DNA of 55,641 nt from an uncultured Gammaproteobacteria bacterium (lineage in GTDB: Bacteria; Patescibacteriota; Patescibacteriia; UBA1558; 2-01-FULL-52-15). The stretch covers positions 1-55,641 of the forward strand of contig CAZASM010000004.1 in the NCBI GenBank assembly GCA_964487895.1, in the 5' to 3' direction. The notes under the pieces are model-generated. The model had not been told where the DNA came from, ran no database searches, and was given only the letters and a program-made list of their open reading frames with translations. Position numbers and translations under genes: made by a program. Shown here in pieces: positions 9,727 to 47,889 of this stretch; position 1 is the stretch's first letter, and every line of letters starts with the position of its first letter.

Positions 9727-10260
9727 CATTTACCCCTCCTTTACAAGTAGGTCTGCCCGTCGCAGGCAGGGGCTAGGGGAGGTAAGTAATTCTTACGGAA
9801 TGAACTTGACCCTTATCTAACACCTGTTATGCTTATCCATGTACAAAAGGAGGAGCTCCGAAGGATTAGAAACGGGGCCTCTGATCCCTGTCGCGTCCGA
9901 TCATTGAGTTTCCAGCACTCAATGGCGACTAGGAGCTCCTCCATCTTCTTCGTTCATTCTATTTTTAGAGGGAAGGCCCGACACTTCAACCGCGAGCTGT
10001 CTGATCCGTTGGCAACGAAAGACGGTTTGCGGCCTTGAACGGCTGCGTCTGACAAGGCGCGCGGCCTGGGGCTTTCCCTCACTTGTTCATTTGATTACAG
10101 AACGCTGCCAAAAAAAACATGAGAAGTCGCTCACCACGGCTTCGCGGAGGTCCCCACCTCATGTGATGGTATTTCAGGGCACCATCGGCAGCGTTCACTT
10201 CTCACCGAGTAGCGGTTGAATTGCTCTGACAGCCCCCCTGTTGTCAGACGGTTTGGCTTC
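9727..10260 (+). other. High-GC non-coding structured region (candidate ncRNA or decayed foreign sequence) opening high-GC island 1
   Basis: Much higher GC than the flanks by eye. Nested perfect inverted repeats, for example ggaggagctcc...ggagctcctcc (9848-9943) enclosing cattgagt/actcaatg, and ctgcc/ggcag. No convincing ORF. Confidence 0.4.
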
Positions 10261-10360
10261 TGCTCGGTTTTTTTGATCATTACAATTTGACATTTTATAA
10301 ACCATATCCTATATTTTTGAATTGTAAGATGTCCTTTATATATTGAAGTTTAGATTTTGG

Positions 10361-10423
10361 GCTGATAGGTAGATTTAAATTATTTAAATGTAGCTATCAG
10401 CCCATAGTACTATCGGATATCCC
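10361..10423. repeat. Two perfect palindromes: gggctgatag-[25 nt]-ctatcagccc and ctatcggatatcccgatag
   Basis: Read directly; 10-bp and 7-bp perfect stems sharing ctatc. They lie between a putative promoter (ttgaca-17-tatatt, about 10289-10320) and the RBS of the island-1 gene. Confidence 0.6.
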
Positions 10424-10456
10424 GATAGACACAGGTGGCTGAAGAAGGAGGTTCGA

Positions 10457-11098
10457 TTGCTCGGTAACCCGCGGCACTTGAAGTATCCCCCCTGGTTCGA
10501 CACCTGTGTGACTCTGTTCGTGACTCTGATGGTCGCGCTCGGCTTCGGGCTCCTGATGCCCGTCAAGGCCGAAGCGGCAACGACGAAGTCTGTTTCCGGC
10601 GGTCTCCCTTTGGAGTGGTACGCAACCTGTCCCTCCAAGGCTGAGCCCCCCATGATCGGCGCGCAGTCCGCGGCAATGTTGCTGCAGGAAGTGAGGTCGG
10701 CTGACGCCACCTACGCTGCTTGCATGGCGAATTTCGGTCACTGCGTATTCTCTGCGACGAACTACGCGACGGTATCGATCACGAATCACGCCGACGGCGC
10801 CTCGATGATCATGCCAGCGATGATGACGACCACCGGCGGCAATACCAATGCCGCGGTTCTGATCAGCTACTATATCTCGACTATGCCCGACCGTTCCAAC
10901 CCGGCGGCCTATACCTCGGAGGGCGCCTCGACCGGGCGTTTCACCGGCGCCGCGTCGATGTACGCGGAGTTCGTTCCCGAGTATCGTCTTTCCAGGCCGG
11001 ATGTGGTCAAGACTCACTACTCACGACAACTGGACCGGGCGACTCGCGCGTCGCCCACCCACTCAACCAACCGGTTGATCCTGCGCAGGTTCTGCTGA
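10457..11098 (+). CDS. High-GC secreted hypothetical protein (signal peptide, Ala/Thr/Ser-rich)
   Basis: RBS aaggagg precedes a TTG start. Signal-peptide-like LFVTLMVALGFGLLMPVKAEA. The frame is uncertain because GC-rich DNA gives long ORFs in several frames. Confidence 0.4.
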   Translation: MLGNPRHLKYPPWFDTCVTLFVTLMVALGFGLLMPVKAEAATTKSVSGGLPLEWYATCPSKAEPPMIGAQSAAMLLQEVRSADATYAACMANFGHCVFSATNYATVSITNHADGASMIMPAMMTTTGGNTNAAVLISYYISTMPDRSNPAAYTSEGASTGRFTGAASMYAEFVPEYRLSRPDVVKTHYSRQLDRATRASPTHSTNRLILRRFC

Positions 11099-11154
11099 CC
11101 TGCACTTCTCGCCATCGGGACGCTTCCCGAAGTAGTTCAGTCTCGTGCTGACTA

Positions 11155-11195
11155 CGCCCCCGTTCGCTTCGGCGCTCGGGGGTTTTTTATTTTAG
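11155..11195 (+). terminator. Rho-independent terminator (gcccccgttcgcttcggcgctcgggggtttttt)
   Basis: GC-rich stem-loop followed by T-run; closes island 1. Confidence 0.6.
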
Positions 11196-11321
11196 TAATT
11201 TTTCAAGGGCAGGTCTCGACCTGCCCCTACAAATGCGAATTACATTTCCCCAATTCCTAATTTCTTAATTCATAATTCTTCATTCTTATTTTCTCACACT
11301 CGTGTTATAATAATCTCAATC

Positions 11322-25058: not shown

Positions 25059-25295
25059 TCAGACGTGGTCGTTTCTGATTCGTCGACTGATGTCAGTTGG
25101 CCGTGTAGGTAGCCGCTTGACCCAGAAGTACATGAGCAGGAGAAAGCCAACAACGAGCAGATAGCCGATAGCGCCGAAGAGCTGGTTGCCAGAGACGAAG
25201 CAGACACCAGCTACCAGTACCACTAGCGAAGCTGTAACCAGCCAGGCACCAAAAGCATCGCTCATCGTTGCTTTTGGCTTTTCTTTTGTAGTCAC
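25059..25295 (-). CDS. Small two-TM membrane protein (about 79 aa from a GTG start)
   Basis: RBS gaggagg 5 nt upstream of the GTG at 25295. Hydrophobic helices. GC is locally elevated. Confidence 0.4.
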   Translation of the reverse strand: MTTKEKPKATMSDAFGAWLVTASLVVLVAGVCFVSGNQLFGAIGYLLVVGFLLLMYFWVKRLPTRPTDISRRIRNDHV

Positions 25296-25375
25296 AGAAA
25301 CCTCCTCGAGTGAGATAATGTTGTACGAATTATACTTTGCTAGCCTAGACCTTTGCTTGTGTCGCGTCAAGTAGG

Positions 25376-33303: not shown

Positions 33304-33720
33304 TCAGATAATTCTGATAACAACGCCAAAGCGGTTGAGGTATCCTAGGTGGATGATCTGGCCGTTACTCCAGTAGAGCAAGTCACCGGCACGAGCCAGT
33401 GATCTATCATGCTGAGTGAGTTTCAGATTACTATCGGCATCCCAGATCATCTGCGGGTTGCCATAGTATTGTGGCTGAAGCAAATCGCTGGCGAAACTCC
33501 AGTTGTAACCATGAGCCATCTCATGAATCAAGAGATCTGTGCCCCTCGGATATTCACCGTACTGAGTTGGGAGCCATTCTATGGCACTGATAATGCTCAG
33601 ACAGCTGCTACGCGTCATAATGTCACTACGCATTTCAATCACCACGGTAGTCAGGAGTGCCACATAGAGAATGCCGGCCAGCAAGACCCTAGCCCACAAT
33701 TCTTTTTCATGTCTGTACAT
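33304..33720 (-). CDS. Small membrane-anchored HExxH (zinc-metallopeptidase-like) protein
   Basis: The ATG at 33720 has RBS aaaggagg. One TM helix, then the motif LLIHEMAHGYNW. Moderately elevated GC. Confidence 0.45.
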   Translation of the reverse strand: MYRHEKELWARVLLAGILYVALLTTVVIEMRSDIMTRSSCLSIISAIEWLPTQYGEYPRGTDLLIHEMAHGYNWSFASDLLQPQYYGNPQMIWDADSNLKLTQHDRSLARAGDLLYWSNGQIIHLGYLNRFGVVIRII

Positions 33721-33923
33721 GGATAGTCCTCCTTTGAGGTGAGCTGGCGAAGAGATATACTCCCTTCGACACGGCTCTATTCTCAAAGGGAGCTACCCCA
33801 CCACTGGCTGATTTGGAACAACAATGAACAGGTACTCCAACCCTAGCAGGAGGGCTTTGATTTTGCAACAGCTCTATTTGGCAGCTATATTTATCTGTCA
33901 TAGGATGAATATGTCGACAAAAA

Positions 33924-33957
33924 TAAAACTCCACTTCAACTGGTGGAGTTTTATCTT
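33924..33957. terminator. Bidirectional terminator (aaaactccacttcaactggtggagtttt)
   Basis: Read directly. Confidence 0.6.
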
Positions 33958-33962
33958 GTAGG

Positions 33963-34223
33963 TTAACGACCTTTCTTTTTCGCGGCCATTTTTTTCATTA
34001 GACCGATAGCAGCGATAGTAGCAGCTGCAGCAGCTATACCCTGAAAAATTTTCTTCTTCATCTTGGGATCAAGCTTGGTATACATTTTTTTCGCCTGAGT
34101 AGCGTGATCAATCACTTGGTCGATCATGCTATTGATATCGTTAGCGTCATCAGCTGCATTCTTGATGATTTTCTTAGTTGCCGTTGGCATATGTGTATGG
34201 TTAATGATTAGTATTTTTAGCAT
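33963..34223 (-). CDS. Small Lys-rich protein with C-terminal hydrophobic helix
   Basis: ORF only; host-like low GC. Confidence 0.35.
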   Translation of the reverse strand: MLKILIINHTHMPTATKKIIKNAADDANDINSMIDQVIDHATQAKKMYTKLDPKMKKKIFQGIAAAAATIAAIGLMKKMAAKKKGR

Positions 34224-34373
34224 AACATCAAATGTAGAAAGGCAACAGCTTTTTTGAGGTAAAAAATGTTGTAATACTTTTCGTTAATTTGAAAAAGCCC
34301 GTCAGCTATTGGCTAACGGGCTCGAGAACTTTTCGGTCATGATGACCAGGCTGTTCTCCTTACCTTGGTGAAG

Positions 34374-35237
34374 TTACTTGAGAAAGTTGATCCCCTGCTG
34401 AAACCGGAGTTCCAGCTGAGGCGATTGACCCTCCACGATGTGGTGGTTGAGTTCCAGTCGGGATCTCCAACCCAACTGGCGCTGGATAGAGAAGAGACCA
34501 CCGAAGCGATTGCTGGCATTGACCTCTTCGAACTGTGCGCCGACTGACCAAACTTCGCTGAGTTTGACGATGCCGTTGAAGTGCAACGCGGTGTTGTCAT
34601 ATTCACGACGGGCAAGTGCAAAGTTCAGTTGCAGCGGTCCGTGCGCTGTTCCGATGAAAATCGCTTCGTAGTCACGATTTCCACGCGGCTCAACCTGACC
34701 AACCAGACTTACTGTCAGGTCGGGAGCCAAGTTGAACACAATGCGTCCAGCCAGATCGAGATCACCGTCGACGTTTTTGTTCAGAACGCCCTCGCCGTTG
34801 TAAGCGGCAAGGTGCGCCGAGAAGCTCTTGTCGGTATAGCCGACCATCACGCCCTCGTCCACGAACTGAGGGTTCAGCTTGAGGAGCGGGGTCGACGGAA
34901 AGAAAACATTCCACGGCCCCGGATGATCATAGGTCGTCAGCGTCAGCAGGATGCCGGCATCGACCTTGAGCCCCGAACCCAGGACGTAATTGACGTCCAA
35001 GATCTGGGGTTTGTTACTGACGAGGTTGTACTCACCGACGAGCGTCAGGCGCTCGTTGATGACCTTCTTGCCCAGCAGCCGAGCCACGGGGATATCGAAG
35101 GCCTCGTTATCGCCGGCGATGCTGCCCGTGGTCTGGAAGTATCCCCACAGCAGGTTGGTGTTCGACTGGGCTTCGGCGGACTGACAGGTGATGCTAACGC
35201 CGAGGAAAGCCACCAGTGCGATCAGGACAGACTTCAT
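34374..35237 (-). CDS. Secreted beta-strand-rich protein (porin/outer-membrane-like or periplasmic), high GC
   Basis: Signal peptide MKSVLIALVAFLGVSITCQSAEA; alternating hydrophobic pattern; RBS aaggagg. Confidence 0.45.
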   Translation of the reverse strand: MKSVLIALVAFLGVSITCQSAEAQSNTNLLWGYFQTTGSIAGDNEAFDIPVARLLGKKVINERLTLVGEYNLVSNKPQILDVNYVLGSGLKVDAGILLTLTTYDHPGPWNVFFPSTPLLKLNPQFVDEGVMVGYTDKSFSAHLAAYNGEGVLNKNVDGDLDLAGRIVFNLAPDLTVSLVGQVEPRGNRDYEAIFIGTAHGPLQLNFALARREYDNTALHFNGIVKLSEVWSVGAQFEEVNASNRFGGLFSIQRQLGWRSRLELNHHIVEGQSPQLELRFQQGINFLK

Positions 35238-35460
35238 GAACTGCCTCCTTACGGTTGAGTTGGAATGCTATTGTATTTCGTCTACGCCGCTGAAGATCTC
35301 TAAGGGCCAAAAGGCCGAGAGCTACGATCTGGGAGATTATCAGACAGGTCCGATAATAACCACAGACAAGGTATCTCTATATTGATCCGCTAGACAGCTA
35401 AAGCTGGAGTAGATCAACCAGATCTCCATGGGTGTAGACGAAATATGATTTATAAATGTG

Positions 35461-35533
35461 CGTTACTTTTCTGAACCAACCATCATTGATGATGAGTTCG
35501 GAAGAGCGGACGATACACCGAGGTGTATCGTCC
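35461..35533 (-). repeat. Island-2 intergenic repeat, copy A (conserved arm plus variant hairpin cggacgatacac-ctcg-gtgtatcgtccg)
   Basis: Shares ttctgaaccaaYcatcWttgWtgatga...cggaagag with copy D. A hairpin occupies the same position as in copies B, C and D but has a different sequence. Confidence 0.6.
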
Positions 35534-35550
35534 GATCACTACTGTCGTGT

Positions 35551-35991
35551 TCAGGGTTCGTCAGTTGGGGTAGCTTTCACCAACCAAAGGAAGTCGTTGT
35601 GGTAGATGCCTTGTGAGTCATTGTAGTGTACGTTAGTCACAAGCACCTTTTGACCGGCACGGACATCAACAGGATGAACCGTCTTAATCGTGTATACGGT
35701 TCCTTTGGGGTCTCTTGCTTCAAAGAAGCACAGGCCAACTTCCGAAGCCTCGCTGATGATACCTGTGACGACTTCATAGGTCGCGGGCTTGGTCCAGGGA
35801 TCGGTCAGGATTTCAGTGGGTTTGTAGGGCTCCACCGGAGAGTCGACAGCGACCTGATCGCTGGCGATCGCCGTACTGCGATCGGGCCAAGGAGCGGTCG
35901 TGCCCTTGGTCTTGTCGATGTAGTAGTACAGCGCAATAACGACAACTGCCAGAAATCCAACGAACTTCCATGTACGCATAAAACGGGGCAT
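35551..35991 (-). CDS. NfeD-like short protein (N-terminal TM plus C-terminal OB-fold beta domain)
   Basis: TM helix followed by GTVYTIKTVHPVDVRAGQKVLVTNV, which resembles the NfeD C-terminal domain that usually partners SPFH proteins. Confidence 0.4.
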   Translation of the reverse strand: MPRFMRTWKFVGFLAVVVIALYYYIDKTKGTTAPWPDRSTAIASDQVAVDSPVEPYKPTEILTDPWTKPATYEVVTGIISEASEVGLCFFEARDPKGTVYTIKTVHPVDVRAGQKVLVTNVHYNDSQGIYHNDFLWLVKATPTDEP

Positions 35992-36068
35992 GGTAGAAAC
36001 CTCCTAAAAGAGTGAATAGCTATACAGTAGTGTTATATGTAAACCGCTAAGCTAGCGGTGTTTTCGAA

Positions 36069-36149
36069 GAACGAATTACACGTCTGAGACTACTAGATCA
36101 AAGTCTACTAATCTCGGATGTGTGGAGGAAGCGACGAATCGCTTCCTCC
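36069..36149 (-). repeat. Island-2 intergenic repeat, copy B (hairpin ggaggaagcg-acgaat-cgcttcctcc)
   Basis: About 85% identical to copy C over roughly 80 nt; lies immediately 3' of the stop of the 114-aa gene. Confidence 0.65.
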
Positions 36150-36154
36150 GATGA

Positions 36155-36498
36155 TTACCTCTGCTGCACCCAATGAATATGAGACGGATGAGTTGAGTGG
36201 AATTCGGACGTAACTCCGTCTCCCAACTCGATGAAAGACTGCCGAATCATTTTTTCGGCTTGGAGAAACCCTTCCGCCGCCGACGTTTCATCAGCAAATC
36301 GAAATTTCTCCAGAAAAACACCCGCCACTTCTGGTTGTTCCGTCTCGAATTCTTCGTCTCCGAAGGAGACGACCCAACCTTTTTCTTTTTCGATCATACC
36401 GTTACATGACGGTAAATCGAATCCAGGGGACCAGAGGAACAAGTCGCTTCCTCTGAGTACGCATTCGAGCCCTCTGTAACTGTTGATGCATGCGAACA
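36155..36498 (-). CDS. Acidic cytoplasmic 114-aa hypothetical protein
   Basis: Strong RBS gggaggagg 6 nt upstream of the ATG at 36498. The track ORF extends to 36700 only by reading through repeat C. Confidence 0.45.
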
Positions 36499-36617
36499 TT
36501 TTTGCCTCCTCCCACCGAAGTGGGGATGTAAGTCTGGCCGGTCTGCGCGGAATGCGTGACCGGTAGAGCCAATCCCCTTCGCTGCGGGGTAGAAAAAACT
36601 TTTTATTTGAATGTAAT

Positions 36618-36698
36618 GAACTTAGTACACATCTGAGATTATTAGAACGAAGTCTACTAATCTCGGATGTGTGGAGGAAGCGATGTTCTGCTTCCTCC
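36618..36698 (-). repeat. Island-2 intergenic repeat, copy C (hairpin ggaggaagcg-atgttctg-cttcctcc)
   Basis: See copy B; the hairpin loop differs while the stem is conserved. Confidence 0.65.
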
Positions 36699-36712
36699 AA
36701 TTTGAACCATGT

Positions 36713-37063
36713 TCAGCGTCGCAGCCAGAACAGCAAGAAAAATGTTACAGTTCCGATGAGCCAGATGATCCCACCTGATACCAGGATGAATCTTACTCGG
36801 CTGACACGTAACTTGCTACTGCAACGATCGATCAGGTCAGGCCTGATATATTGATTGCTGAAATGCACGTAGAGCAAGATGGCCAGTGTGGTTACTGACA
36901 TCCCACCCAAGTTCGAGAAACAGAGGTAAGCTATCGGCTCAAGCAGACCTCCTGGTCCGGTATAGGGGCAAATCAAAGCATCGCGGAGCATGAGACCAAA
37001 GATTAGAATCACGACAGGAATTGAAAATCCTGTCGGTACATCTAGACTTCTGCGATTGAGCAT
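36713..37063 (-). CDS. Three- to four-TM small membrane protein
   Basis: RBS ggagg; hydrophobic helices. Confidence 0.45.
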   Translation of the reverse strand: MLNRRSLDVPTGFSIPVVILIFGLMLRDALICPYTGPGGLLEPIAYLCFSNLGGMSVTTLAILLYVHFSNQYIRPDLIDRCSSKLRVSRVRFILVSGGIIWLIGTVTFFLLFWLRR

Positions 37064-37137
37064 TGAAACCTCCAGAAAACTGGTGCACAGCAGTAAGAAA
37101 GATGTATGTAAATTGTCTTAAAGACAGCTTATGAAAA

Positions 37138-37271
37138 GAACTTAGTACTCTTCTGAACCAATCATCTTGTATGATGACAAGCTCGGAAGAGTGGAGGAAG
37201 CGACGAATCGCTTCCTCCATGAGAACATTTCGGTCATGTTGACCAGGTTGTTCTCCTATACCTTGTTGAAG
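37138..37271 (-). repeat. Island-2 intergenic repeat, copy D (full-length: stop-proximal arm, ggaggaagcgacgaatcgcttcctcc hairpin, distal arm)
   Basis: Contains all modules. The stop-proximal arm ttcggtcatgWtgaccaggYtgttctcc...gaagTTA recurs as copy E (34324-34373) after the last gene. Confidence 0.65.
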
Positions 37272-39185
37272 TTACCTGCTGAATTCGGGAGACGACGGAC
37301 CGTCGGTCATCGGGGGCTCGTCACCTTCGACGCTCACTGAGGCGGCATCGGGGGTGAACGGAACCTTCCTGACTTCCGGCGCCTTGCGCTCGAGACTGTC
37401 CTTGATCAGGCCAGCCATGAGCACGTTGACGAGAGTGTTACCACCACCGTCAGCACCACCGCCAGCCACGACGTCCGGTACCAGCTTGAAACCGCTGGTG
37501 GACAGCGCGCGGGCGACTTCGATCATGGCGAAGTTGCCGGATTCCATGGAGTCGATCTTCTGCTTGATGACCTTGGCTTCGGACGTTCCGACAGCCATGA
37601 TCTTCTCGCCTTCAGCGGCGCCGACGGTCTTGAGGACCATAGCGTCAGCTTCAGCGACGAGCTTCTTGGACTCGGCTTCACCCTTGGCCTTCTCGACGGC
37701 CGCGTTGGCCTCGAAGGTCTTGATGGAAACCTGCCGTTCCGCCTTCACCACGTCGGGCTGTGTGTCCGCCATGGCCTGAGCCTGCTGCAGATCACGCCGG
37801 ACATCCTGAGCCTTCTTCTGGGAAGCATAGGTAACTTCCCGTTGTTCGGCCAGCTTCCGGTCGGTCAGCGTGGTCATGAGATCATCCGGCGGAACGATGT
37901 CACCGATGAGGGTGTCCACCGCCACGACGTTGTACTCGTTGAGCGCTTCGGAAATCTTCGTGCGAGCATCGGCTTGACGTGCTTCGCGACCGCGCAGGAA
38001 GTCGATGACATCCGACCCCTGAGCAGTGTTGCGGAAGTAGTTGCCGATGATCGGCTCCAGCACCTGTGTCACCAGGTTCAGGACGCTGCCGAAGCGTGCG
38101 ATGACCTTCGGCGCTTCCTTGCCCGGAATGTGGATGATCTGGGAGACGTCGAGGTTGAACTTGAAGCCGTCCGACGACCGAACGGTGATCGTCGACAGCT
38201 TCTCATCCAGCTTGTGTGCCTCGGTCTTGCCCGTGGCCCAGTTCAGGACCACGTTGGCGGTCGGCACGTTCTCGACCTTGTGGGTGTAGGAATTGATCGG
38301 GTACTTGCCAGGATCGAGTGTGTCGACCCAGACGCCCTTCTCCCCCCGAGTCACCAGATTGCCGTGCTTGAAGGCCTCACCGGTGACGTCCACGCCTGCC
38401 TTGCCCACGTAGGCGATGACAACGCCGACATGAGCGATAGGAACGGTGGTCATCTCTTTGATTTCCACCGTGGCGAAACGCGGGTTGATGAAGTAGCGAC
38501 CAGCGAGCATCACCTGTTCCTGGAGGCCCTTATGACCTCCATTGTCGATGAAGCTCTGGCCATCCTGGTACATGTTGTGGCCGACGATCTCGTTTCCAGC
38601 GATGTCGCCAGTTGCGAGGGGCTTGCCTTCACGCGTCGTCACGATGCCGACCATGTTGTCCTCGATCTCGAGCACATTGGTCATGACCACCGTGAAGAGT
38701 GCAGTGTTGATGCGGTAGGTGCCAGGTGGGATGATCGTGATCTGAGGACCACGCTCTCCACCGTTTTCCAAGAAAAGCCGAGCGCTCTGGAAAGAGTCGC
38801 ACTCGATTCTCTTGGCGAGCACGCGACCGCCGGACAGCGGCTTACCGTCACGCGACTCGACGACTCCGAGGCTACCCTCGGGGATTTCCAGGAACTTCAC
38901 GCGTTCCACCTCATACTGCCACGGCCAGAAGCCGAAGTGCAGTCCGGGCGCCAGCGTGTCGGCCTGGTAGCCAGCTTCGCCCTTGAGAGCGATGATGGCG
39001 CCGTCGGGCAGGGTACGGTTGCCTCCGAAGAGGACGAACTTCTTGTTCACCACGCCGAGGGAATCCTCGGGGATGATGACGACTCCGAAGAGTCGCACCC
39101 AGATCCGGTTGGTCAGGATCAGCAGGAACAGGACGATCACCCCGATTGCTACGGGGACAAAGGGTCCGAGCAGCTCTTTCACCAA
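37272..39185 (-). CDS. Flotillin-like SPFH (band 7) domain protein
   Basis: N-terminal TM, SPFH core, then a long Ala/Glu/Lys-rich coiled-coil (AEQREV...EKAKGEAESKKLVAEADAMV...) typical of bacterial flotillins. The likely start is the GTG at 39182. Confidence 0.75.
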   Translation of the reverse strand: MVKELLGPFVPVAIGVIVLFLLILTNRIWVRLFGVVIIPEDSLGVVNKKFVLFGGNRTLPDGAIIALKGEAGYQADTLAPGLHFGFWPWQYEVERVKFLEIPEGSLGVVESRDGKPLSGGRVLAKRIECDSFQSARLFLENGGERGPQITIIPPGTYRINTALFTVVMTNVLEIEDNMVGIVTTREGKPLATGDIAGNEIVGHNMYQDGQSFIDNGGHKGLQEQVMLAGRYFINPRFATVEIKEMTTVPIAHVGVVIAYVGKAGVDVTGEAFKHGNLVTRGEKGVWVDTLDPGKYPINSYTHKVENVPTANVVLNWATGKTEAHKLDEKLSTITVRSSDGFKFNLDVSQIIHIPGKEAPKVIARFGSVLNLVTQVLEPIIGNYFRNTAQGSDVIDFLRGREARQADARTKISEALNEYNVVAVDTLIGDIVPPDDLMTTLTDRKLAEQREVTYASQKKAQDVRRDLQQAQAMADTQPDVVKAERQVSIKTFEANAAVEKAKGEAESKKLVAEADAMVLKTVGAAEGEKIMAVGTSEAKVIKQKIDSMESGNFAMIEVARALSTSGFKLVPDVVAGGGADGGGNTLVNVLMAGLIKDSLERKAPEVRKVPFTPDAASVSVEGDEPPMTDGPSSPEFSR

Positions 39186-39528
39186 TTTCTCCTTTCGAGA
39201 GTGTTTTTGCCGCGCTTTGCGGCGTATTTCTGGAACTATAGGAAAATTGACTAAACTTTCTTACATTTTAACGAACCTCCTTGTGAGAGCCCGCCCTTCG
39301 GGTTTACAAAAGAATGTATTACCTTAGTACATATAATCATATTTGTCAAGAGTAGAATTGACATTTTGTGCTAATGTTAGCCATTTACATTTAAAAAGTG
39401 TTTAATATTAGCCAAAATTTGATTTTAGGCTGAAAATGTACTAAACTCATAGGAGTTAAGTATGAGTTAATAGATCCCTTTTCGCTAAAGCTTCAGGGGA
39501 TGTCGTCTATTTAATTTTAACGTGCTCC

Positions 39529-39921
39529 ATGTTTAAATTAAGCACTCGCGTACAATATGGACTTGAGGTAATGGAGGCTTTAGCTACTAAGCCTGATTTC
39601 GTCTCTTTAACTGATCTATCTGAGGAGATTCATCGCTCGGCTAATTATCTCCAGCAGATTATCAAACCATTGAAGGAAGCTGGTTTAGTGATCAGTAAAG
39701 AGGGTGTGACTGGCGGTATCAAGTTAGCTAAATCACCTAAGGCCATTACCTTGTATGATGTGTTAGTTGCTCTCGATGGTGAAGTACAACCTATCAGCTG
39801 TTTGTCAGATGATCACGCCTGTCCCACGAAGCAAACCTGTGGTCATCGGAAATATTGGAGTAAGGTGACAGATATATTAGAAGAACAATTTAAGAACACT
39901 ACTCTCATTGATTTGAAATAA
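39529..39921 (+). CDS. Rrf2-family (IscR/SufR-like) transcriptional regulator
   Basis: HTH LSTRVQYGLEVMEALA, and a C-x-C-x-C cluster (CLSDDHACPTKQTC) consistent with an Fe-S ligand region. Confidence 0.7.
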   Translation: MFKLSTRVQYGLEVMEALATKPDFVSLTDLSEEIHRSANYLQQIIKPLKEAGLVISKEGVTGGIKLAKSPKAITLYDVLVALDGEVQPISCLSDDHACPTKQTCGHRKYWSKVTDILEEQFKNTTLIDLK

Positions 39922-47001: not shown

Positions 47002-47889
47002 TTAATTAATATTGCCAGCCAAGTGTTTAATAGATGTTCGTTTAGTATATCCCATTTTGTTTTTGATTTCCTCTTCAGATAATCCTTGTGTATACAGCTT
47101 CGCTAGTCGTGCTCGGCGTAAATCATTGGCTGTTAGGTTTAATCCTGCACTGTGAGCATATTTTTCAATCACTCTCTGAACGGAACGGCTAGTCATGGGT
47201 TTGGGCTTTTTCACTTCTCTACCGCCGACAGCTCGATCATGGGAGATGAAAATATAGGGGTTAGGATAGGATCCGCCTGTGGTGGAAGGGCGTAGGGTTA
47301 AATAATCTTGGATATATCCTCTGACAGATTGAGAAAGTGGTAATTCATGATGACCCTGATGATCTTCATAGCGAATTTTATTCTTTTTCACCTGTTCAAT
47401 TCTCAGATTTGCAACGACTGCCAGCTTCAACCCAGTCTCTAGCATGAGACTAATTAAAGCTTGGTCTCTTTTTTTGATAATCAGAGGAGCGCGAGAGCTC
47501 ATGACTGACCGTAGAAGTTTAGTAAGTTCTGCTGTTGTTGGCAAGGTGGGTTGAGTTGCGTCAACTTTAGTCAATTTGATGGCTTTGGTGACTCGCAGGT
47601 TAACATTATGGGTAGATAGATATTGCAAAAAGTTTCTCAGAGCAATTAGATGATAGTTAATAGTTTTTTTATCTAGTTTTGTCTGACGGCCTTTGAGAGT
47701 TTTGAGATATGTTCGGTAATTAATAATTAGTGAATCAGTAATTTGTGCTGGTGTAGTTACCTTAGACCAGCGCAAAAAACGGCGTAGGTATAGTTCATAA
47801 TTACGAACGGTTAGAGGTGAGCGTTTTTTGATAAATTCCCACTCTTCCAGAAAGCTCAGTAACAATTTTTCTAAGGTATATGATGCCAT
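47002..47889 (-). CDS. Tyrosine recombinase, XerC/XerD/phage-integrase family (divergent catalytic C-terminus)
   Basis: The N-terminal SAM-like core-binding domain (LTVRNYELYLRRFLRW) is clear. The catalytic region (LRRARLAKLY...MGYTKRTS) is degenerate relative to the canonical HxLRH...LGH...Y. Confidence 0.6.
   Translation of the reverse strand: MASYTLEKLLLSFLEEWEFIKKRSPLTVRNYELYLRRFLRWSKVTTPAQITDSLIINYRTYLKTLKGRQTKLDKKTINYHLIALRNFLQYLSTHNVNLRVTKAIKLTKVDATQPTLPTTAELTKLLRSVMSSRAPLIIKKRDQALISLMLETGLKLAVVANLRIEQVKKNKIRYEDHQGHHELPLSQSVRGYIQDYLTLRPSTTGGSYPNPYIFISHDRAVGGREVKKPKPMTSRSVQRVIEKYAHSAGLNLTANDLRRARLAKLYTQGLSEEEIKNKMGYTKRTSIKHLAGNIN

What the first reader, a model, noticed from the sequence alone, without database searches (positions are those of the whole stretch)
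34321..39300. High-GC five-gene island (flotillin/SPFH, NfeD-like, membrane protein, small acidic protein, beta-rich secreted protein) in a low-GC streamlined genome
All five genes share one strand. Each has a strong RBS, and by eye they carry far more G/C in codon third positions than any housekeeping gene in the window, with sharp boundaries on both sides. The SPFH/NfeD pairing is an established functional module, but its partners here (a 116-aa TM protein, a 114-aa acidic protein and a signal-peptide beta-rich protein) are not a described operon. A porin-like beta protein is unexpected if the host is a monoderm CPR-like bacterium. The compact same-strand layout and the repeat after every gene suggest a horizontally acquired cassette set rather than an ancestral operon.
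Basis: partly seen in the sequence, partly recalled or inferred. Interest (0 to 1): 0.7.

Follow-up and report, generated by a model that had tools for sequence, protein, structure and literature searches.

The report
Modular high-GC gene array in CPR
A five-gene, GC-rich operon in a small AT-rich candidate-phyla-radiation (CPR) bacterium is a real, clade-specific variable gene array: a fixed promoter/leader drives gene modules separated by conserved folded repeats, which looks like an integron but lacks every integron hallmark.

Summary
Five minus-strand genes (34374-39185) have GC3 of 0.52-0.78 against 0.30-0.46 for the host, and their tetranucleotide profile is foreign. Both edges are sharp.

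It is not an assembly chimera. The same junctions occur in independent assemblies of related genomes, including an NCBI-named Komeilibacteria MAG.

The locus lies between the Rrf2-suf operon and a small conserved gene, and it is hypervariable. Two lineages have it empty, one carries flotillin plus the beta-barrel gene only, the window adds three orphan genes, and others carry unrelated cargo.

All occupied loci with the upstream region assembled, except L115/L116, share a platform: TTGACA-17-TAnnnT promoter, leader hairpin, strong SD and an ATG-TAA start-stop.

Genes are separated by structured repeats. Repeat A (~81 nt, two hairpins, 11 compensatory pairs) is 91-96% identical between genomes whose genes are only 72-82% identical. 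None of the repeats matches Rfam, canonical attC, phages or plasmids, and no integron integrase is present.

The SPFH call is right. "NfeD-like" is unsupported. The beta protein is porin-like and under purifying selection.

Best reading: an integron-like cassette array of unknown enzymology. The flotillin core appears old in this clade rather than recently acquired.

The parts
39321..39349 (-). Platform promoter: -35 TTGACA (39349-39344), 17-nt spacer, -10 TAAGGT (39326-39321)
   Evidence: Read. The same TTGACA-17-TAnnnT-ATTCTTTT arrangement occurs in L006, L008-L011, L093 and twice in L114. The generic scan missed it because the -10 box matches only 3 of 6 consensus positions.
39261..39316 (-). 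Conserved leader: ATTCTTTT, small hairpin (about 39302-39289), SD GGAGG (39280-39276), and a start-stop mini-ORF ATG-TAA (39266-39261)
   Evidence: the single match in the window. Conserved as ATGTAA or ATGTAG in L006, L093/L008 and both L114 platforms.
39186..39260 (-). 5' UTR of the first gene: hairpin CGCCGCAAAGCGCGGCA (39224-39208), then CTCTCGAAAGGAGA as the SD
   Evidence: The same hairpin-plus-SD design precedes flotillin in L093 and L114, and also the unrelated 111-aa gene of L114.
37272..39185 (-). g1: YqiK-type SPFH/flotillin, 637 aa, GC3 0.78
   Evidence: Pfam Band_7 E 1.2e-22. Homologues are named YqiK by JGI. The only PDB sequence relative is QmcA. It is 92% aa identical to P0002 on the 62%-GC contig L001, and 73-74% identical (72-75% depending on the alignment) to the flotillins of related CPR lineages.
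37221..37274 (-). Repeat B copy 1. It starts at the stop codon (TAACTTC...AAGGTATAGGAGAAC...) and forms a nested hairpin
   Evidence: (D3, D11). Covariation across 5 copies: 3 pairs with changes on both sides and 91.5% of cells paired.
37138..37218 (-). Repeat A copy c1 (H1 type I + H2 type I + ACTAAGTTC)
   Evidence: CM R1 94.5 bits.
36713..37063 (-). g2: 116-aa hydrophobic basic protein, an orphan, GC3 0.53
   Evidence: No hit in Pfam, NCBIfam, PADLOC or PHROGs. Its cluster has one member.
36618..36698 (-). Repeat A copy c2 (H1 type I + H2 type IIa + ACTAAGTTCATTACA)
   Evidence: CM 94.1 bits. It is 91% identical to the L006 copy.
36503..36589 (-). Element C: a three-hairpin 5' UTR ending in the SD of g3
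   Evidence: Aligned with two copies in L006. The P2 and P3 stems differ in sequence but still pair (read).
36155..36499 (-). g3: 114-aa acidic protein (pI 4.7), an orphan, GC3 0.52
   Evidence: No family hits.
36069..36149 (-). Repeat A copy c3 (H1 type I + H2 type IIb)
   Evidence: CM 99.8 bits. It is 96-97.5% identical to the single copy in L093/L008.
35551..35991 (-). g4: 146-aa protein with an N-terminal TM helix and a small five-strand beta domain, an orphan, GC3 0.60
   Evidence: No NfeD hit and no fold match.
35458..35536 (-). Repeat A copy c4. H1 has a different sequence but the same hairpin; H2 is type I; the AAGTTC tail is missing
   Evidence: (I9, D6, D8); CM 69.7 bits. It supplies many of the compensatory pairs counted.
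35274..35445 (-). 172-bp element bounded by 26-nt inverted repeats inside the g5 5' UTR (MITE-like insertion). It is absent from the 57-nt UTR of L093
   Evidence: I3; comparison.
34374..35237 (-). g5: 287-aa secreted, porin-like beta-barrel protein, GC3 0.72
   Evidence: BBP2 hit below its cutoff. The AF2 model has 16 strands at pLDDT 55. Foldseek against PDB gives 16-stranded porins, E about 1e-9 and TM about 0.6. dN/dS against L093 is 0.17. The family is rare: 24 representatives among 1.84e9 proteins.
34324..34376 (-). Repeat B copy 2 (after g5)
34292..34321 (-). Intrinsic terminator (10-bp GC-rich stem followed by TTTTT) that closes the operon
   Evidence: fifth fold. A decayed homologue sits at the empty site of L007.

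Best explanation
The region is one operon of a Komeilibacteria-like CPR bacterium. It occupies a clade-specific, hypervariable accessory locus between the divergent Rrf2-suf operon and a small conserved gene.

A fixed 'platform' drives a string of promoterless, compositionally foreign gene modules. The platform consists of a sigma-70-type promoter, a leader hairpin, a strong SD with an ATG-TAA start-stop mini-ORF, and a second hairpin plus SD. A flotillin (g1) and a porin-like beta-barrel protein (g5) form an old core under purifying selection. g2, g3 and g4 are extra modules present only in this genome.

Modules are delimited by conserved folded joints: repeat A (two hairpins plus an AGTTC tail), repeat B (starting at the stop codon) and element C (a 5' UTR).

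Proposed mechanism:
- The joints are the points at which modules are gained, lost and swapped between lineages. This could happen through an as yet unidentified site-specific enzyme, or by homologous recombination between the near-identical joints after DNA uptake.
- In the mRNA, the same hairpins insulate or stabilise each cistron.
- The system therefore works like an integron (common promoter plus cassette array) without being one.

Shown: the anatomy, the conserved structure of the repeats, the variable content at a fixed site, and the conservation of the platform. Inferred: recombination at the joints, the RNA role, and the identity of the enzyme.
For: 1. Same locus, different content:
- L093/L008 carry platform, flotillin, B, A, g5, B and terminator only.
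- The window adds g2, g3 and g4, each with its own repeat A.
- L006 has the same platform and repeats but unrelated genes.
- L114 (Komeilibacteria) has two platforms, one driving a 111-aa and a 178-aa gene and the other driving flotillin.
- L007 and the L083 group are empty.

2. Homology breakpoints coincide with the repeat edges (searches compared).

3. The repeat A structure is conserved: 96.4% of cells are paired, 11 pairs have compensatory changes, and 0 of 500 shuffles reach this. c4 and an L006 variant keep the architecture with unrelated sequence.

4. Repeat A copies are 91-96% identical between genomes whose genes are 72-82% identical. This implies sequence-specific recognition or recent exchange.

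5. Repeat A is confined to the island. The covariance model with filters off finds only the four copies in 55.6 kb. It finds none in empty-site relatives, and searches of viral contigs, plasmids and phages found no copy.

6. The junction motif AGTTCATYACA recurs after hairpins at window c2, in L093/L008, and in the otherwise different leader of L115.

7. GC is heterogeneous between modules (0.48-0.60).
Against: - No recombinase or transposase lies in or next to the island. The only tyrosine recombinase in the window (47002-47889) is Xer-like and is also present in relatives without the island.
- No excised or circular form and no alternative junction was observed.
- Only about five lineages are available, so deletions and ordinary recombination could account for part of the variation.
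- Repeats A and B are absent from platform operon 1 of L114, so they are not obligatory.
- The c4-g5 junction lacks the AGTTC motif.
- Wobble pairs slightly favour folding of the sense strand (7 G-U against 4 A-C cells), which also fits a purely RNA role.
Confidence: 0.5

Rival explanations
1. This is an ordinary inherited operon. Its intercistronic hairpins are RNA-level elements, such as REP-like 3' stabilisers, processing sites or insulators. Differences between genomes come from deletions and homologous replacement through the conserved host flanks, as in a 'minimal mobile element' hotspot, and the repeats play no role in mobility.
For: - The repeats lie in the 3' or 5' UTR of every cistron and fold very stably (z -5.3 to -8.8).
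- Sense-strand wobble pairs outnumber antisense ones.
- No recombinase lies nearby.
- Flotillin and g5 behave as vertically inherited genes under purifying selection.
- L007 keeps a decayed terminator, which suggests plain loss.
Against: - It does not explain why unrelated cargo genes in L006 carry the same repeats.
- It does not explain why repeat A is 91-96% identical across genomes, loops included, while everything around it is 72-82% identical.
- It does not explain why homology breakpoints sit exactly at the repeat edges.
Confidence: 0.27
2. Repeat A is a miniature selfish element that has colonised the intergenic spacers of this operon. Its two subterminal hairpins recall a cargo-less IS200/IS605-type PATE or a REP/BIME. 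It would be moved by an HUH (TnpA or RAYT) enzyme encoded elsewhere, and the gene modules would not be its cargo.
For: - The unit is a discrete ~81-nt two-hairpin block with sharp edges, and it is more conserved between genomes than its flanks.
- H1 and H2 types combine as a mosaic.
- GTTC occurs on both sides of c1, c2 and the L093 copy (read).
Against: - No copy lies outside the island in 55.6 kb or in 124 kb of related loci.
- No HUH gene was seen among the ORFs that were scanned (not all window ORFs were scanned) or among the precomputed Pfam hits of syntenic relatives.
- The strict one-copy-per-gene pattern would be unexplained.
Confidence: 0.13
3. It is a canonical integron, or a CALIN (a cluster of attC sites lacking an integrase).
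For: A common promoter drives a same-strand array of promoterless genes, each followed by a structured repeat. Content varies among relatives.
Against: - No RYYYAAC...GTTRRRY pair with complementary boxes occurs anywhere in the window on either strand.
- The repeats form two or three separate hairpins rather than one R/L-box stem.
- The closing stems are not conserved.
- The only tyrosine recombinase scores 25 bits against a 265-bit cutoff for the integron-integrase model.
Confidence: 0.04
4. It is an assembly chimera or contamination from a high-GC organism.
For: Only the abrupt change in composition.
Against: - The same host-island junctions appear in independent assemblies from other samples (L008-L011, L093, L006, L114).
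- A Logan contig is 100% identical to the window.
- The AT-rich platform and the repeats are interleaved with the GC-rich genes.
Confidence: 0.01

Closest known systems
Integrons and CALINs (IntI, attI, Pc, attC cassette arrays)
   Same: One fixed promoter platform drives a same-strand array of mostly promoterless, compositionally heterogeneous genes. Each gene is followed by a structured repeat of 55-140 nt. Gene content differs between close relatives at a fixed chromosomal site. A short ORF in the platform recalls ORF-11 of attI1 (from my own knowledge).
   Different: There is no IntI. There are no R''/R' core sites. The repeats fold into two or three independent hairpins instead of one R/L-box stem. 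The first gene (flotillin) is conserved across lineages instead of being the most recent cassette. The host is a CPR bacterium.
REP/BIME elements with RAYT, and IS200/IS605-derived PATEs
   Same: They are short extragenic palindromic units placed after genes, with conserved hairpins and short conserved flanking motifs. They may also stabilise the upstream mRNA.
   Different: Repeat A is confined to one operon rather than spread over the genome. No HUH or RAYT gene was seen. The units are larger and composite.
pdif modules / Xer-exploiting elements (IMEX)
   Same: H1 is a perfect 11-6-11 palindrome (TGGAGGAAGCG-ATTCGT-CGCTTCCTCCA), which is the geometry of a Xer/dif core site. The only recombinase nearby is Xer-like. 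Modules carry single genes.
   Different: The H1 sequence is replaced by unrelated hairpins in c4 and in L006. This argues for a structural role rather than a protein-binding role. The host dif site is unknown, and the modules are not in alternating orientation.
Neisseria minimal mobile elements and intergenic mosaic repeats (NIME, Correia)
   Same: A hotspot between conserved genes has strain-specific content that could be exchanged by transformation and homologous recombination. Mosaic intergenic repeats are present.
   Different: There is no sequence relationship. Here the repeats punctuate a single operon, and a conserved expression platform is present.
SPFH-NfeD operons (YqiJ-YqiK, YuaF-FloT)
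   Same: g1 is a YqiK-type SPFH protein. g4 has the general layout of a short NfeD: a TM helix followed by a small beta domain.
   Different: g4 has no NfeD signature. It is absent from the minimal island of L093, so it is not the conserved partner. The conserved partner is the porin-like g5.

Membership tests
Integron | An integron integrase (IntI, a tyrosine recombinase with the IntI-specific insertion) adjacent to the array | tested here: not met
   No recombinase lies next to the array. The only tyrosine recombinase in the window (47002-47889) scores 25.5 bits against a 265-bit cutoff for TIGR02249. It matches Xer models best, and it is also present in relatives that lack the island. The rest of the genome could not be examined.
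Integron | attC sites with R'' (RYYYAAC) and R' (GTTRRRY) boxes that pair, plus L boxes | tested here: not met
   A pattern scan of both strands of the whole window for complementary R''/R' boxes 45-160 nt apart gave no hit. The folds show separate hairpins and no conserved closing stem. IntegronFinder's covariance model was not available.
Integron | A common promoter upstream of a variable array of promoterless cassettes | tested here: met
   The TTGACA-17-TAnnnT promoter and leader are conserved in window, L006, L008-11, L093, L114. Content differs downstream.
SPFH / Band 7 (flotillin, YqiK type) | An SPFH domain above the Pfam gathering score, plus an N-terminal membrane anchor | tested here: met
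   PF01145 scores 81.2 bits against a 23.6-bit cutoff. The N-terminus is hydrophobic. JGI names the homologues YqiK.
NfeD | The NfeD C-terminal OB-fold domain (PF01957) next to an SPFH gene | tested here: not met
   g4 has no Pfam or NCBIfam hit at E <= 0.1 or 0.01. The single-sequence AF2 model (pLDDT 53) shows a TM helix and five strands but has no PDB fold match at E < 1. The fold test itself is inconclusive because the model is poor.
Outer-membrane general porin | A 16-stranded transmembrane beta-barrel with a signal peptide | tested here: inconclusive
   The model has 16 strands, but at pLDDT 55 and from a 3-sequence alignment. Foldseek finds OmpU, OmpT, OmpF and Rhodobacter porins at E 1e-9 to 1e-6 and TM about 0.6. 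The Pfam BBP2 hit scores 16.7 bits, below its 26.2-bit cutoff. There is no C-terminal aromatic residue.
REP/BIME | Many copies dispersed in extragenic regions across the genome, together with a RAYT gene | tested here: not met
   The covariance model with filters off finds copies only in the island within 55.6 kb. No HUH gene was seen among the ORFs scanned with Pfam or NCBIfam (not all window ORFs were scanned) or among the precomputed Pfam hits of syntenic relatives. The whole genome was not available.
Any Rfam RNA family (ribozymes, riboswitches, leaders) | A match to a curated covariance model | tested here: not met
   At gathering thresholds only three tRNAs were found. The E-value scan of 33800-39600 gave only chance-level hits at E > 0.6.
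CPR / Patescibacteria host (Komeilibacteria-like) | Close homology and synteny with a genome classified in that group | tested here: met
   The Rrf2 protein is 68% identical to that of an NCBI 'Candidatus Komeilibacteria' MAG. That contig shares the gene order Rrf2-SufCBDS-NifU-RmlD-Xer-NYN-PNPase and carries the platform. No marker-gene phylogeny was run.

The most novel reading that the evidence does not exclude
Komeilibacteria-like CPR bacteria may possess a previously undescribed gene-cassette system. It would have a conserved promoter, leader and start-stop platform, plus structured ~80-nt joints (hairpin, hairpin, AGTTC core). The joints would be recognised by a recombinase or HUH enzyme unrelated to IntI. 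The system would capture and shuffle GC-rich genes from neighbouring or host bacteria. Among the captured genes is a porin-like barrel that a cell without an outer membrane keeps under selection, possibly for use on its diderm host.
Probability: 0.25. Interest if true: 0.85.

Novelty: new variant of a known kind. Interest (0 to 1): 0.62.

Why it matters
CPR bacteria have tiny genomes and are thought to have few routes for gaining accessory functions. A dedicated, promoter-equipped locus that swaps membrane and surface genes would be such a route. It would also be an integron analogue built from different parts.

The folded repeats A, B and C and the start-stop leader are new, testable RNA or DNA elements.

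Two further points are of evolutionary and cell-biological interest:
- The genes have kept GC3 near 0.8 for a long time in a 42%-GC genome.
- A selected porin-like protein sits in a presumed monoderm episymbiont.

Tried and rejected
- Exact-protein look-ups of g1, g5 and SufB found no record.
- Repeat A core patterns in viral contigs gave only chance coding matches or lone terminator-like hairpins. Repeat B and element C patterns gave nothing there.
- The metagenome scan returned 71 loci. All are chance matches that lack hairpin 1.
- Rfam gave nothing at gathering or E-value thresholds.
- blastn of the g2-g4 block against plasmids and phages gave no match.
- PADLOC and PHROGs gave nothing for the five window proteins.
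- Canonical attC is rejected.
- A small ORF reading through repeat A or repeat B (MEEAIRRFLH..., MTEMFSW...) is rejected. Start codons and reading frames are not conserved between copies, whereas the pairing is.
- 'Very recent transfer from an L001-like donor' was considered because of the 92% aa identity. It is rejected because dS between the window and L001 flotillins is 0.84, as large as between CPR lineages.

Full report

Yes. In 1-kb windows the GC fraction rises from about 0.40-0.44 to 0.50-0.60 between 34.0 and 39.5 kb.

Five ORFs on the minus strand fill the interval:
- g1: 37272-39185, 637 aa
- g2: 36713-37063, 116 aa
- g3: 36155-36499, 114 aa
- g4: 35551-35991, 146 aa
- g5: 34374-35237, 287 aa

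Their GC3 values are 0.78, 0.53, 0.52, 0.60 and 0.72. Forty-nine of the other 52 ORFs scored lie between 0.30 and 0.46. The exceptions are 10457-11098 (0.785; its antisense ORF scores 0.52), 33304-33786 (0.55) and 25059-25370 (0.56).

The tetranucleotide profiles agree. Host 5-kb windows correlate 0.84-0.95 with the host profile and island windows 0.11-0.56. The island as a whole correlates -0.12 with the host and +0.69 with a 62%-GC contig that carries the closest flotillin.

Each gene has GGAGG, AGGAGG or AAGGAG 5-9 nt before its start codon.

The repeats are real:
- GGAGGAAGCG-N6-CGCTTCCTCC occurs three times, against none in 100 shuffles.
- A 35-nt nested palindrome occurs twice, against none in 100 shuffles.
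- The repeat finder groups them into an ~84-nt family after g1, g2 and g3, a diverged copy after g4, and a ~57-nt family after g1 and g5.

**2. Anatomy of the transcription unit** (read on the minus strand)

- -35 box TTGACA (39349-39344), a 17-nt spacer, and -10 box TAAGGT.
- Leader ATTCTTTT, then a small hairpin.
- SD GGAGG (39280-39276), followed 9 nt later by ATG-TAA (39266-39261), a start-stop mini-ORF.
- Hairpin CGCCGCAAAGCGCGGCA, then CTCTCGAAAGGAGA.
- g1.
- Repeat B (37274-37221, beginning at the stop codon) and repeat A c1 (37218-37138).
- g2, then A c2 (36698-36618).
- Element C (36589-36503, three hairpins ending in the SD).
- g3, then A c3 (36149-36069).
- g4, then A c4 (35536-35458).
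- A 172-bp unit bounded by inverted repeats (35445-35274).
- g5, then repeat B (34376-34324).
- A 10-bp GC-rich hairpin followed by TTTTT (34321-34292).

The intergenic segments fold far better than shuffled sequence (z from -5.3 to -8.8).

**3. The repeats are structured and unknown**

Repeat A consists of four parts:
- H1, a 9-12-bp perfect stem.
- H2, an outer stem of 6-7 bp, an internal loop and an inner stem.
- A short spacer.
- AAGTTC.

On six copies from three genomes, 96.4% of cells pair and 11 of 28 pairs show changes on both sides. No shuffle out of 500 reaches this, and the slid controls fall to 34-53%. Copy c4 and a variant in L006 keep the two-hairpin architecture with unrelated stem sequences.

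Repeat B has three compensatory pairs across five copies. For example, the outer stem is GAGAAC/GTTCTC in one copy and GAGAGC/GCTCTC in another.

Element C keeps three hairpins, with different sequences in P2 and P3.

Searches for a known identity all failed:
- Nothing matches Rfam at gathering or permissive thresholds.
- There is no canonical attC box pair anywhere in the window.
- There is no blastn match in plasmids or phages.

A calibrated covariance model of repeat A, run with filters off, finds only the four island copies in the 55.6-kb window. In related loci it finds one copy each in L008, L093 and L006. It finds none in relatives without the island, and none among viral hairpin look-alikes.

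Public scans found repeat A only in two MAG contigs that proved syntenic with the window. The 71 metagenome hits are chance matches.

**4. Comparative genomics: a hypervariable locus, not a chimera**

Contigs from other assemblies share the host flanks DsbA-DsbD_TM on one side and Rrf2-SufC-SufB on the other.

| Locus | Content |
|---|---|
| L093 (JGI), L008-L011 | platform, flotillin, B, A, g5 homologue, B, terminator, then the conserved 75-aa gene |
| Window | the same, plus g2, g3 and g4, each with a repeat A, between flotillin and g5 |
| L006 | the platform, then a 78-aa TM protein, a 240-aa lipoprotein-like protein, a B-like start with variant hairpins, element C, a 112-aa protein, repeat A, element C and a further gene; none is related to the window's cargo |
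| L114 (NCBI-named Candidatus Komeilibacteria MAG) | syntenic from Rrf2 to PNPase; two platform copies, one driving a 111-aa and a 178-aa gene and one driving flotillin |
| L115/L116 (Rrf2 92% identical to the window) | another leader and another N-terminally anchored gene |
| L007 and the L083-L092 group | no island; the 75-aa gene lies next to Rrf2, and L007 keeps a decayed copy of the island terminator |

The 112-aa protein of L006 matches PADLOC Unk_01, a CARF-associated small protein.

A Logan contig is 100% identical to window 34789-36114. Chimeric assembly is therefore excluded, and the host is CPR-like. The 'uncultured Gammaproteobacteria' label on two TPA MAGs is probably wrong.

**5. 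Where do the breakpoints fall?**

blastn between arrays shows that homology starts and stops at the repeat edges.
- c3 matches the L008/L093 copy at 97.5% over 80 nt, with unrelated genes on both sides.
- c2 plus element C match L006 over 169 nt, starting at the first base of H1.

Repeat A copies are 91-96% identical between genomes. The surrounding genes are only 72-82% identical at the nucleotide level.

A short motif follows H2 in most copies: ACTAAGTTC, TTCGTTC, ATAGTTC or AAAAGTTC. The 11-mer AGTTCATYACA occurs at window c2, in L093/L008, and after a hairpin in the otherwise different L115 leader. It occurs nowhere else in the window.

The H1 and H2 types combine as a mosaic (c1 I+I, c2 I+IIa, c3 I+IIb, c4 II+I).

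These features point to exchange at or within the joints. They do not reveal the enzyme.

**6. The proteins**

- **g1** is an SPFH protein of the YqiK type.
- **g4** is not detectably NfeD. It has no family hit, and its single-sequence model (pLDDT 53) shows a TM helix plus five strands without any fold match.
- **g5** belongs to a very rare family. Only 3 proteins turned up in the word-indexed search and 24 representatives among 1.84 billion proteins. Some of the latter are ~600-aa proteins that carry the domain at the C-terminus. The low-confidence g5 model (pLDDT 55) has 16 strands and matches general porins.
- **g2 and g3** are orphans.

**7. Age and origin**

The window flotillin is 92% aa and 84.5% nt identical to a gene on L001. 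L001 is a 62%-GC contig without any of the repeats. The window flotillin is only 72-75% aa identical to the flotillins of L093 and L114, depending on the alignment used.

Even so, the CPR flotillins plus L001 form one clade in an NJ tree without bootstrap support.

Divergence estimates:

| Comparison | dS | dN/dS |
|---|---|---|
| g1, window vs L001 | 0.84 | 0.07 |
| g1, window vs L093 | 0.88 | 0.26 |
| g5, window vs L093 | 0.76 | 0.17 |

Neighbouring host genes show dS of 0.47-2.3.

The flotillin/g5 core is therefore old and under purifying selection. It is not a recent arrival. It nevertheless keeps GC3 of 0.72-0.82 in every lineage. I cannot decide between three explanations:
- maintenance of GC by selection;
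- maintenance of GC by biased gene conversion at a recombination hotspot;
- repeated allelic replacement from GC-rich partners.

**8. Interpretation**

The best-supported reading is a clade-specific accessory locus in which a fixed expression platform drives modular, compositionally foreign genes delimited by conserved folded joints. Functionally this is integron-like. Membership in the integron family fails on both defining features that I could test, the integrase and the attC sites.

The rivals are:
- a purely RNA-level role for the hairpins, with content change through ordinary recombination;
- a selfish two-hairpin mini-element.

Neither rival explains as well why unrelated cargo in different genomes carries nearly identical joints. 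Neither is excluded, because no recombinase, excised form or alternative junction was seen.

**9. Verdict**

NfeD is unsupported, and the core is ancestral to the clade rather than newly acquired.

I rate the finding as a new variant of a known kind (a cassette array), with moderate to high interest.

Noticed in passing
window 9812-10275 (+): A GC-rich, highly structured non-coding stretch of about 440 nt (MFE -189 kcal/mol, z -7.5). It has a promoter-like TTGACC-N16-TATGCT upstream and ends in a long hairpin plus a U-run. It has no Rfam match and is not a tmRNA. Its first domain closes with GGAGGAGCTCC/GGAGCTCCTCC followed by ...TTCGTTCATTC, which recalls H1 and the junction motif of repeat A. 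It is a candidate novel ncRNA.
   Followed up: partly
window 10290-11200 (+): A second GC-rich gene (10457-11098, 213 aa, GC3 0.785, no family hit, exact sequence not in the protein collection). It has its own TTGACA-17-TATATT promoter, a hairpin-rich leader and a terminator. It may be another foreign-composition module at a different locus.
   Followed up: partly
window 35274-35445: A 172-bp unit bounded by 26-nt inverted repeats (85% complementary) inside the 5' UTR of g5. The orthologous UTR in L093 is only 57 nt long. It looks like a MITE insertion.
   Followed up: no
window 33304-33786 (-); L093 4717-5370, L007 7341-7997, L083 7414-8073: A second variable slot lies between the 75/86-aa gene and DsbD_TM. 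Relatives carry a conserved GC-rich (GC3 about 0.7) 217-219-aa secreted 'GPNANAKIL' protein there. The window instead has an unrelated 160-aa ORF (GC3 0.55).
   Followed up: partly
L114 1760-1849 and 3180-3267 (-): The Komeilibacteria MAG has two tandem copies of the promoter, leader and start-stop platform. Each heads its own GC-rich operon, so the platform itself is a repeated module.
   Followed up: yes
L006 236-574 (-): A cargo gene in a related array matches PADLOC Unk_01 ('small protein sometimes fused to CARF', E 3.5e-19) and two PHROGs of unknown function. A cargo gene in L114 matches phrog_24725. This hints at defence- or phage-related cargo.
   Followed up: no
L005/L008 and L006 (records CAYYYA010000031.1, CAZIOU010000019.1): Two TPA MAGs labelled 'uncultured Gammaproteobacteria bacterium' are syntenic with the window and with a Komeilibacteria MAG. 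The label is probably a misclassification.
   Followed up: partly
window 39317-39332 and 39436-39451: An inverted repeat (TATTACCTTAGTACAT / ATGTACTAAACTCATA) links the island promoter's -10 region to the conserved sequence upstream of the divergent Rrf2 gene. It may be a shared operator, in which case the Fe-S regulator would control the island.
   Followed up: no
L001 2095-3936: A 62%-GC contig of an unrelated organism carries a flotillin that groups inside the CPR flotillin clade (93% aa to the window over the trimmed tree alignment, dS 0.84). This raises the possibility of gene flow from a CPR bacterium to a GC-rich, possibly host, bacterium rather than the reverse.
   Followed up: partly
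L115 160-290 (-): A lineage whose Rrf2 is 92% identical to the window's has a different leader: TTGACA-17-TATAAT, the hairpin AGGCTAAAGTTAGCCT, then AGTTCATTACAT. It has no start-stop, and the first gene is a different N-terminally anchored one (identity not determined).
   Followed up: partly
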